Shown here one piece after another: positions 55,590-55,958 of a DNA stretch of 64,000 bases (its first letter is position 1; the number at the start of each line of letters is the position of its first letter). The notes beneath the pieces are model-generated. The model had not been told where the DNA came from, made no database searches, and saw only the letters and a program-made list of their open reading frames with translations. Origin of the DNA: Escherichia coli (GTDB lineage Bacteria > Pseudomonadota > Gammaproteobacteria > Enterobacterales > Enterobacteriaceae); assembly GCF_044324785.1 (NCBI RefSeq), contig NZ_CP172127.1; one strand, written 5' to 3'. The position numbers and the translations under genes were made by a program.

Positions 55590-55660
55590 CGGCAGATAGA
55601 GAAAAGCCCCGAGTGATATTTTACCATCAACCCGAGGCCCCCTATATGCTGAACACATGT
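55590..55660 (-). ncRNA. sokC: Predicted SokC antisense RNA (approximate position)
   Basis: Placed by analogy with hok/sok loci, antisense to the mokC 5' region; boundaries not determinable from sequence alone. Confidence 0.35.
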
Positions 55661-55855
55661 AGAGTGCCTCTTACTGACCGTAAGGTCAAGGAGAAGAGAG
55701 CAATGAAGCAGCATAAGGCGATGATTGTCGCCCTGATCGTCATCTGTATCACCGCTGTAGTGGCGGCGCTGGTAACGAGAAAAGACCTCTGTGAGGTTCA
55801 CATCCGAACTGGCCAGACGGAGGTTGCTGTTTTCACGGCTTACGAATCCGAGTAA
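55646..55855 (+). CDS. mokC: MokC, overlapping reading frame that modulates hokC translation (type I TA)
   Basis: 69-codon frame MLNTCRVPLTDRKVKEKRAMKQHK… ending at the hokC stop. Confidence 0.7.
   Translation: MLNTCRVPLTDRKVKEKRAMKQHKAMIVALIVICITAVVAALVTRKDLCEVHIRTGQTEVAVFTAYESE
55703..55855 (+). CDS. hokC: Hok-family membrane toxin HokC (type I toxin)
   Basis: 50-aa product MKQHKAMIVALIVICITAVVAALVTRKDLCEVHIRTGQTEVAVFTAYESE; classic Hok sequence. Confidence 0.9.
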   Translation: MKQHKAMIVALIVICITAVVAALVTRKDLCEVHIRTGQTEVAVFTAYESE

Positions 55856-55958
55856 GAGCAACGGCGGGGAGTGATCCCCGCCACTTTACAGGTGCTCGCA
55901 TATCTTCAACGCACCCTGGTTTTACCCAGGCCTGCCCACGGGCAGGCTTTTGGGGAGG

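What the first reader, a model, noticed from the sequence alone, without database searches (positions are those of the whole stretch)
55590..55958. hokC/mokC type I toxin-antitoxin locus upstream of nhaA, without the IS186 found in K-12
The 50-aa Hok toxin (55703-55855) and overlapping 69-codon mok frame are intact, and the downstream region contains the GC-rich fold-back (ggcggggagtgatccccgcc, ~55868-55887) typical of hok mRNA 3' ends. In K-12 an IS186 copy (insL) lies next to this locus between dnaJ and mokC, and hokC is thought to be inactivated there; here no IS is present, so the locus may be in its ancestral, potentially active configuration.
Basis: partly seen in the sequence, partly recalled or inferred. 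Interest (0 to 1): 0.3.

Follow-up and report, generated by a model that had tools for sequence, protein, structure and literature searches.

The report
Ordinary IS-free hokC toxin–antitoxin locus
This is the well-known hokC/mokC/sokC small-toxin locus of E. coli in its usual uninterrupted form (about 70% of complete E. coli genomes have it this way); the K-12 copy with IS186 is the minority state, so the finding is correct but ordinary.

Summary
Window 55703-55855 (+) encodes a 50-aa Hok/Gef toxin (Pfam 1.8e-24). It is identical in protein to K-12 HokC and sits between nhaA and dnaJ with no IS element. The in-frame 69-codon mokC starts at 55646. The hok leader matches Rfam RF01794 (119.5 bits).

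The quoted GC hairpin is real but lies at 55863-55882, 5 nt from the stated position. It is not the fold-back-inhibition (fbi) element. It is the site where K-12's IS186 is inserted (10-bp duplication GGAGTGATCC, 55868-55877). The fbi element (55904-55916) and the terminator (55925-55954) lie beyond it.

Of 5426 complete E. coli genomes:
- 3791 have the uninterrupted locus.
- 658 carry IS186 at this site in the K-12 orientation.
- 667 carry it in the opposite orientation.

So the IS-free state is ancestral and common.

All regulatory elements of the R1 hok/sok model are present by sequence and predicted fold. However, as cited by later papers, an IS-free hokC (ECOR24) tested in 1999 gave no post-segregational killing and no rifampicin activation. 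IS-free hokC loci have also been noted in print. This is already known, and interest is low.

The parts
55541..55546 (+). hokC promoter -10 hexamer TATAAT, with no recognisable -35
   Evidence: Sequence. It lies 7 nt upstream of the Rfam leader start at 55553. The consensus scan, which needs both hexamers, did not call it. The assignment is inferred.
55553..55954 (+). Predicted full-length hokC mRNA, about 400 nt
   Evidence: The 5' end is set by the Rfam model start and the 3' end by the terminator hairpin. MFE -172.3 kcal/mol, z=-6.3 against shuffles. The ends are inferred, not mapped.
55553..55564 (+). tac element: the 5' end, which pairs with fbi in the full-length mRNA
   Evidence: MFE pairs 55553-55558 with 55911-55916 and 55559-55564 with 55904-55909. 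Mean pair probability is 0.99. The same 5'-3' pairing appears in the MFE of four other hok loci.
55596..55654 (-). SokC antisense RNA gene. It covers the mokC Shine-Dalgarno sequence and AUG.
   Evidence: Projection of the K-12 sokC annotation (16952..17010) through the alignment. The RNA folds into a 5' tail plus a stem-loop followed by CUUUUCUCU; -28 kcal/mol, z=-5.2.
55661..55689 (-). SokC promoter: -35 TTGACC (55689-55684), 17-nt spacer, weak -10 CACTCT (55666-55661)
   Evidence: Read from the sequence relative to the annotated K-12 sokC 5' end, and identical to K-12 here. Not called by the consensus scan. Inferred.
55634..55637 (+). mokC Shine-Dalgarno sequence (GAGG)
   Evidence: Sequence. 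It is 8 nt upstream of the mokC AUG and lies inside the SokC-complementary region.
55646..55855 (+). mokC reading frame: 69 codons, in frame with hokC
55644..55665 (+). Upstream box (ucb-like) around the mokC start. It pairs with 55883-55903 in the full-length fold.
   Evidence: MFE helices. Equivalent pairing of the segment after the hairpin with the mok region is predicted in the paralogues. Prediction only.
55688..55693 (+). hokC Shine-Dalgarno sequence (AAGGAG), 9 nt before the AUG
   Evidence: Sequence.
55703..55855 (+). hokC toxin gene, 50 aa: MKQHKAMIVALIVICITAVVAALVTRKDLCEVHIRTGQTEVAVFTAYESE
   Evidence: Pfam HOK_GEF 85.5 bits. The protein is identical to the K-12 and WP_000809168.1 alleles.
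55841..55844 (+). TACG motif at the Tyr47 codon: the TadA A-to-I editing site (Tyr to Cys) reported for hokC
   Evidence: Motif present in the sequence. Editing of hokC at the equivalent position ('46') was reported at about 9% in K-12. Not tested here.
55863..55882 (+). GC-rich hairpin GGCGGGGA-GUGA-UCCCCGCC just after the stop codon. The IS186 target and duplication is 55868-55877.
   Evidence: Forms in the MFE. K-12 and strain cq9 carry IS186 here with the 10-bp duplication GGAGTGATCC. A homologous hairpin is present in hokE, hokB, flm and the IncY homologue.
55883..55903 (+). Downstream box (dcb-like), which pairs with the mokC start region
   Evidence: MFE. In K-12 it is separated from the gene by IS186.
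55904..55916 (+). fbi (fold-back inhibition) element CUUCAACGCACCC
   Evidence: 12 bp with tac, -18.5 kcal/mol. 54 of 5000 shuffles of the 42-nt region do as well. The position is conserved 39-43 nt after the hairpin start in the paralogues measured (38 nt in the IncY homologue).
55925..55954 (+). Terminator hairpin with a short U-tract, 4 nt from the convergent dnaJ stop codon
   Evidence: MFE. Only four U, so the consensus scan did not call it. It is retained next to dnaJ in 5421 of 5426 genomes.

Best explanation
The region is the chromosomal hokC-mokC-sokC (gef/sof) type I toxin-antitoxin locus of E. coli in its uninterrupted, ancestral arrangement.

Mechanism (inferred from the plasmid R1 hok/sok model; the sequence elements are shown here, the RNA and protein steps are not):
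1. A promoter with a perfect -10 and no -35 makes a roughly 400-nt mRNA.
2. The 5' end of this mRNA (tac, 55553-55564) pairs with fbi (55904-55916). The mokC start region pairs with 55883-55903. The full-length RNA is therefore neither translated nor bound by antisense RNA.
3. Slow 3' trimming back to the GC hairpin (55863-55882) removes fbi. The 5' end then refolds onto 55604-55611.
4. The short antisense SokC RNA (55654 to 55596, minus strand) pairs across the mokC ribosome-binding site. This blocks mokC translation and, through coupling, hokC translation.
5. If HokC is made, it inserts into the inner membrane and depolarises it. A TadA-editable Tyr47 codon adds a further known layer of control.

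In K-12 and about a quarter of E. coli genomes, IS186 has inserted into the GGGG-N6-CCCC hairpin. This cuts fbi, the downstream box and the terminator away from the gene.

The window's copy is structurally complete. It is most likely silent in normal growth, as reported for the IS-free hokC of ECOR24.
For: Identity:
- Pfam HOK_GEF E=1.8e-24 and Rfam RF01794 at 119.5 bits.
- Synteny and near-identity with K-12 hokC/mokC/sokC.
- RefSeq annotations of identical proteins at the same place.

Empty IS186 site:
- Removing the 1339-bp IS and one 10-bp duplicate from K-12 gives exactly the window's GGCGGGGAGTGATCCCCGCC.

Population (5426 complete genomes):
- 3791 uninterrupted.
- 658 with IS186 in the K-12 orientation and 667 in the opposite orientation, with the same duplication.
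- The genomes closest to the window include both states.

RNA architecture:
- The MFE fold of 55552-55955 has tac-fbi pairing, mok-region to downstream-box pairing, the GC hairpin and the terminator; z=-6.3. tac-fbi pair probability is 0.99.
- Truncated or IS-interrupted transcripts refold the 5' end locally, as in the Rfam consensus.
- The same 5'-3' pairing is predicted in hokE (IS removed), hokB, a flm plasmid locus and an IncY homologue. Base changes keep the helix: U-A to C-G at tac position 7, and G-C to A-U at position 12.
- Window-specific SNPs (T55756, GG55918-9) do not change this.

Literature:
- IS186 downstream of gef disrupts fbi.
- K-12 hok loci are inactivated by IS elements, point mutation or rearrangement.
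- The HokC coding sequence is toxic on overexpression.
Against: - No transcript, processing, SokC or toxicity data exist for this strain. All RNA structures are thermodynamic predictions.
- The thermodynamic model does not show the mokC Shine-Dalgarno sequence or AUG opening after truncation, so the activation step is not reproduced computationally.
- The tac-fbi duplex alone is only modestly better than chance: p about 0.011 with a 42-nt region and 0.095 with a 75-nt region.
- The SokC -10 (CACTCT) is poor, and neither promoter passes a consensus scan.
- The terminator has only four U.
- As cited, the IS-free hokC of ECOR24 did not give post-segregational killing or rifampicin activation. An intact sequence therefore does not mean R1-like activity.
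Confidence: 0.9

Rival explanations
1. The locus looks intact but is a functionally dead remnant. It is carried neutrally and is being lost piecemeal by IS186 insertion, deletion and point mutation, and it has no regulated toxin expression in any condition.
For: - The IS-free hokC of ECOR24 gave no post-segregational killing and no rifampicin activation (as cited).
- About 24% of genomes tolerate IS186 in the locus.
- There is a deletion allele and a Q3* nonsense allele.
- The SokC -10 is weak relative to the IncY homologue: TAATCT became CACTCT.
Against: - The transcribed region is far more conserved across divergent alleles (about 3% variable sites) than the 52 nt just upstream (about 25% in B2-like alleles).
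- The HokC protein is identical in 8 of 10 sampled alleles.
- Observed changes preserve structure: a GUAA-to-GAAA tetraloop, and G-C to G-U in the hairpin.
- K-12 hokC is still transcribed and edited.
- The HokC coding sequence is toxic.
Confidence: 0.3
2. The empty site in this strain is secondary: IS186 was once present and was lost by precise excision or by recombination with an IS-free allele, rather than never having been inserted.
For: - The window's hokC-side allele is 99.9% identical to alleles that carry IS186 in either orientation.
- The closest genomes over 16 kb include IS-bearing ones.
Against: - The site is exactly the unduplicated target with no scar.
- IS-free loci are the majority and occur in all allele classes sampled.
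- Insertion in two orientations shows that gain is frequent, so no loss needs to be assumed.
Confidence: 0.05

Closest known systems
hokC/mokC/sokC (gef/sof) of E. coli K-12 MG1655 (b4412, b0018, b4413)
   Same: Orthologous locus between nhaA and dnaJ. The HokC and MokC proteins are identical. Promoters, SokC region, hairpin, fbi and terminator are the same.
   Different: K-12 carries the 1339-bp IS186A in the hairpin loop with a 10-bp duplication. The alleles also differ at 55640 (C here, T in K-12), 55756 (synonymous) and 55918-9 (GG here, AT in K-12).
IS-free hokC loci already described (ECOR24 in Pedersen & Gerdes 1999; AIEC NRG857c hok-1)
   Same: Same gene in the same uninterrupted configuration.
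   Different: The window has a rare 3' variant, GG at 55918-9, found in 7 of 5426 genomes.
hok/sok of plasmid R1 and flm of F-type plasmids
   Same: Same mRNA layout: 5' tac, SokC-type antisense over the mok start, coupled mok/hok, GC hairpin after the stop codon, fbi and terminator. The Rfam leader model matches both.
   Different: - HokC is only about 39-41% identical to the plasmid toxins.
- mokC is in frame with hokC; in flm the two frames differ.
- The locus is chromosomal.
- No killing of plasmid-free cells was reported for hokC.
hokE/sokE of K-12 with IS186B
   Same: Paralogue with the same architecture. IS186 is inserted at the homologous position of the homologous hairpin (GCGGGGAGTAATCCCCGC, duplication GGAGTAATCC).
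   Different: Different chromosomal site (ybdK-entD) and a different toxin sequence.

Membership tests
[quoted passage not shown] | Small Hok/Gef membrane toxin ORF | tested here: met
   Pfam PF01848 at 85.5 bits (cut-off 22), covering profile positions 1-42 of 42.
[quoted passage not shown] | Upstream overlapping mok reading frame with its own Shine-Dalgarno sequence | tested here: met
   mokC 55646-55855 with GAGG at 55634-55637. Here mokC is in frame with hokC, as in K-12. Translational coupling itself cannot be tested with these tools.
[quoted passage not shown] | Conserved hok mRNA leader (sequence plus structure) | tested here: met
   Rfam RF01794 at 119.5 bits against a gathering score of 59, full model 1-157, on the hok-sense strand.
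[quoted passage not shown] | Cis-encoded antisense Sok RNA over the mok translation start, with a promoter and a terminator stem-loop | tested here: inconclusive
   The region is identical to the annotated K-12 sokC apart from one base. It folds as a tail plus stem-loop plus U-run, z=-5.2. However, the -10 is weak (CACTCT), the consensus scan did not call the promoter, and there are no expression data.
[quoted passage not shown] | 5'-3' end pairing (tac-fbi) that locks the full-length mRNA | tested here: met
   12 bp in the MFE with pair probability 0.99. The same pairing is predicted in four other hok loci at the same relative position, with compensating changes. This is prediction only; the single-locus shuffle p is 0.011-0.095.
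[quoted passage not shown] | Stable GC hairpin just 3' of the stop codon (end of the processed mRNA) | tested here: met
   55863-55882, 8-bp stem, forms in the MFE. Homologous hairpins occur in hokE, hokB and flm. That processing stops there is my recollection of the R1 work and was not tested.
[quoted passage not shown] | Post-segregational killing, or toxin activation when transcription stops | not testable with these tools
   Reported negative for the IS-free hokC of ECOR24 (Pedersen & Gerdes 1999, as cited).
IS186 target site | G-run, short spacer, C-run palindrome, with about 10 bp of target duplication | tested here: met
   The window has GGGG-AGTGAT-CCCC. K-12 and cq9 carry IS186 here with the duplication GGAGTGATCC, and K-12 hokE has GGAGTAATCC. 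The published consensus (SaiSree et al. 2001; reference seen) is recalled from memory.

The most novel reading that the evidence does not exclude
IS-free hokC alleles keep a real, condition-specific function (for example persister formation or abortive infection). Under this reading, the repeated IS186 insertions into the hok 3' hairpin, in both orientations at hokC and also at hokE, are selected disarming events rather than just a consequence of target preference. IS186 would then act as a recurrent off-switch for chromosomal hok toxins.
Probability: 0.08. Interest if true: 0.45.

Novelty: already known. Interest (0 to 1): 0.08.

Why it matters
It matters little as a discovery:
- The locus, its regulatory elements, the IS186 disruption in K-12 and the existence of IS-free alleles have been in the literature since 1999.
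- The IS-free form is what most E. coli carry.

The practical value is in annotation:
- K-12 is the atypical reference for hokC.
- The Rfam 'sok' hit marks the hok leader on the sense strand.
- The GC hairpin after hok genes is an IS186 hotspot, which explains the recurrent, orientation-independent insertions at hokC and hokE.

The biological role of chromosomal hok loci remains an open question. This window adds no new handle on it.

Tried and rejected
- **Promoter and terminator scan.** It found neither the hokC promoter, nor the SokC promoter, nor the hokC terminator. These assignments therefore rest on homology with K-12 and the Rfam model, not on the scan.
- **140-nt junction queries.** They gave 841 and 953 genomes, which together exceed the number of interrupted loci. 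hokE-IS186 junctions reach nearly 80% coverage and inflate the counts. I replaced them with 728-nt queries.
- **Shuffle tests of the tac-fbi duplex.** They are only modestly significant for a single locus, so I rely on the conserved position across paralogues instead.
- **Thermodynamic test of the activation step.** Truncated mRNA did not show the mokC ribosome-binding site opening. I do not claim this step is shown.
- **Primary papers.** Pedersen & Gerdes 1999, Fozo et al. 2008 and SaiSree et al. 2001 are not held. Their content is cited second-hand or from memory and is marked as such.
- **Source genome.** An exact look-up of the NhaA protein was uninformative, because the protein is shared by tens of thousands of assemblies. 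None of the six loci returned carries the window's private variants.
- **Searches not run.** I did not scan genome or metagenome collections, run protein-homology searches or predict a structure. The identity was already unambiguous.

Full report
**What is in the sequence**

The interval lies in the 841-bp spacer between nhaA (minus strand, 53951-55117) and dnaJ (minus strand, 55959-57119).
- On the plus strand, an ATG at 55703 opens a 50-codon frame ending at TAA 55853-55855. Its product, MKQHKAMIVALIVICITAVVAALVTRKDLCEVHIRTGQTEVAVFTAYESE, matches Pfam HOK_GEF over the whole profile (85.5 bits, E=1.8e-24).
- An ATG at 55646 opens a 69-codon frame with the same phase and stop. This is how K-12 mokC (16751..16960) relates to hokC (16751..16903).
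- Rfam RF01794 ('sok') matches 55553-55705 over the full model at 119.5 bits (gathering score 59). The hit is on the hok-coding strand and ends in the hokC AUG. What the model recognises is therefore the hok leader, inside which the antisense gene is nested.

**Comparison with K-12**

I fetched NC_000913.3 14000-18800. The order there is dnaJ, IS186A (insL1), mokC/hokC, sokC, nhaA.

Aligning the reverse complement to the window shows colinearity across the whole spacer once the IS is removed.
- With the IS186 inverted repeats (CATAAGCGCTAACTTAAGGGTTG) as boundaries, the element is 1339 bp. It is flanked by a 10-bp direct duplication, GGAGTGATCC.
- Deleting the IS and one duplicate regenerates GGCGG-GGAGTGATCC-CCGCC, exactly the window's 55863-55882. 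The window therefore holds the unoccupied target, and the duplicated bases are 55868-55877.
- Other differences from K-12 are few: 55640 (C versus T), 55756 (synonymous) and 55918-9 (GG versus AT), plus scattered changes nearer nhaA.

**How common the IS-free state is**

The counts below are out of 5426 complete E. coli genomes.

| State of the hokC locus | Genomes |
|---|---|
| Uninterrupted (≥80% of window 55450-56000 in one piece) | 3791 |
| IS186 at this site, K-12 orientation | 658 |
| IS186 at this site, opposite orientation | 667 |

- In most of the remaining genomes the match breaks at query position 429, which is window 55878.
- The IS186 counts come from queries made of 428 nt of the hokC side plus 300 nt of IS186.
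- Annotation confirms the two orientations. The transposase is antiparallel to hokC in K-12 and parallel in strain cq9, with the same 10-bp duplication.
- Shorter junction queries over-counted because of hokE look-alikes.
- Other disruptions exist:
  - hokC is deleted between IS1 and a truncated IS186.
  - A hokC copy lies next to ybdK/entD, flanked by IS150 and IS186.
  - One allele has a Q3* nonsense mutation, and O55:H7 has an A6V variant.
- The genomes closest to the window over 16 kb (98.9-99.0% identity) include both IS-free and IS-bearing ones.
- In K-12, hokE carries IS186B at the homologous position of the homologous hairpin (GCGGGGAGTAATCCCCGC, duplication GGAGTAATCC).

The hairpin after hok genes is thus a recurrent IS186 target. 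This fits the G-run/C-run target preference published for this element. I saw the reference, but the consensus itself is from memory.

In summary, the IS-free state is ancestral and is the norm.

**Anatomy of the locus**
- **hokC promoter and mRNA start.** A perfect TATAAT (55541-55546) sits 7 nt before the leader start. No -35 is recognisable.
- **Full-length fold.** Folding 55552-55955 gives -172.3 kcal/mol, z=-6.3. The MFE contains:
  - pairing of the 5' end, 55553-55564, with 55904-55916 (tac-fbi; 12 bp, one bulge);
  - pairing of the mokC start region, 55644-55665, with 55883-55903;
  - partial pairing of the hokC Shine-Dalgarno sequence;
  - the GC hairpin, 55863-55882;
  - a terminator hairpin, 55925-55954, with only four U, 4 nt from the convergent dnaJ stop codon.
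- **Strength of tac-fbi.** Pair probability averages 0.99 and is unchanged by the window's private SNPs. The duplex alone is modestly better than chance: 54 of 5000 shuffles of a 42-nt region do as well, and p=0.095 with a 75-nt region.
- **Support from paralogues.** The MFE folds of hokE (IS removed), hokB, a flm plasmid locus and an 82%-identical IncY plasmid homologue all pair nt 1-8/12 with a segment 38-43 nt after the hairpin start. Base changes keep the helix.
- **After truncation or IS insertion.** When the RNA is cut at the hairpin or runs into IS186, the 5' end refolds onto 55604-55611, as in the Rfam consensus.
- **SokC.** Projected from the K-12 annotation, it runs from 55654 to 55596 on the minus strand.
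  - It covers the mokC Shine-Dalgarno sequence (55634-55637) and AUG.
  - It folds into a 5' tail plus a stem-loop followed by a U-run (z=-5.2).
  - Its promoter has a good -35 (TTGACC) and a poor -10 (CACTCT).
  - Compared with the IncY homologue (TAATCT), a 1-nt deletion at this spot also puts mokC in frame with hokC (57 versus 58 nt between the AUGs).
- **Editing site.** The Tyr47 codon sits in a TACG motif (55841-55844). This is the TadA editing site reported for hokC.

**Mechanism and its status**

All sequence elements required by the R1 hok/sok model are present and undamaged.

The mechanism itself is inferred from the family and was not shown here: inert full-length mRNA, 3' trimming to the hairpin, refolding, SokC block of mokC and hence of hokC, then membrane depolarisation by HokC. 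The thermodynamic model did not reproduce opening of the mokC start after truncation.

The literature I could read says three things:
- IS186 downstream of gef/hokC in K-12 disrupts fbi and normal processing. An IS-free hokC was characterised from ECOR24.
- The HokC coding sequence is toxic when overexpressed. K-12 hokC is transcribed and edited at a low level.

An AIEC genome paper explicitly notes that its hokC and other hok loci are intact and lack IS elements.

So 'ancestral' is right. 'Potentially active' is an old question, and the one published test was negative.

**Conservation**

I compared ten alleles.
- The transcribed region varies at about 3% of sites, whereas the 52 nt just upstream differ at about 25% in B2-like alleles.
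- Several changes preserve structure: a GUAA-to-GAAA tetraloop at 55680-55683, and G-C to G-U in the hairpin.
- The HokC protein is identical in eight of the ten alleles.

This argues mildly against pure decay, but it is not a formal test.

**Verdict**

This is a known locus in its usual form, so novelty is 'already known' and interest is low.

Noticed in passing
window 55553-55705 (+): The Rfam family named 'sok antitoxin' (RF01794) matches the hok-sense strand, and its 157-position model ends in the hokC AUG. It therefore models the hok mRNA leader, not the roughly 60-nt antisense RNA. Strand calls from this family are misleading.
   Followed up: partly
window 55863-55882; L001, L005, L012: IS186 occupies the hokC 3' hairpin in both orientations with the same 10-bp duplication, in 658 versus 667 of 5426 genomes. 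K-12 hokE has IS186 at the homologous position of the homologous hairpin. The hok 3' hairpin is a recurrent IS186 hotspot.
   Followed up: yes
window 55646-55705 versus L017 330-506: mokC is in frame with hokC (57 nt between the AUGs). An 82%-identical IncY plasmid homologue has 58 nt and so a different frame. The 1-nt difference lies in the Sok -10, which reads TAATCT on the plasmid and CACTCT in hokC.
   Followed up: partly
window 55841-55844: There is a TACG motif at the Tyr47 codon of hokC. This is the TadA A-to-I editing site (Tyr to Cys) reported for hokC, hokD and hokE in K-12.
   Followed up: partly
window 55756 and 55918-55919: The window carries rare variants. T55756 (synonymous) was seen in none of 16 compared alleles. 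GG at 55918-9 is matched exactly over 55880-55960 in only 7 of 5426 genomes. Neither changes the predicted tac-fbi pairing.
   Followed up: yes
window 48000-64000: No complete E. coli RefSeq genome is more than 99.0% identical to this 16-kb stretch; all 5425 matching genomes fall at 95-99%. The source is probably a lineage outside that set, or is not labelled E. coli.
   Followed up: no
window 55500-55551 versus 55552-55955: Divergence changes sharply at the hokC promoter. B2-like alleles differ at 13 of 52 upstream positions but at only a handful of the roughly 400 transcribed positions.
   Followed up: partly
window 57090-57167 (-) and 37290-37342 (-): Rfam gathering-level hits: tpke11 sRNA in the dnaK-dnaJ spacer (69.6 bits) and ES003 sRNA (87.4 bits).
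   Followed up: no
window about 48000-52900 (beyond nhaR): Matching genomes annotate fimbrial usher (PapC-type) genes next to nhaR. K-12 has an IS1 in this neighbourhood (from memory). This may be a fimbrial operon that K-12 lacks.
   Followed up: no
L003 (NZ_CP082129.1) and L004 (NZ_AP045766.1): In strain NDM_11.16372 a hokC-identical gene lies between ybdK and entD, the hokE site, flanked by IS150 and IS186. This suggests an IS186-mediated rearrangement. In strain 23CRST009 hokC is deleted between IS1 and a truncated IS186.
   Followed up: partly
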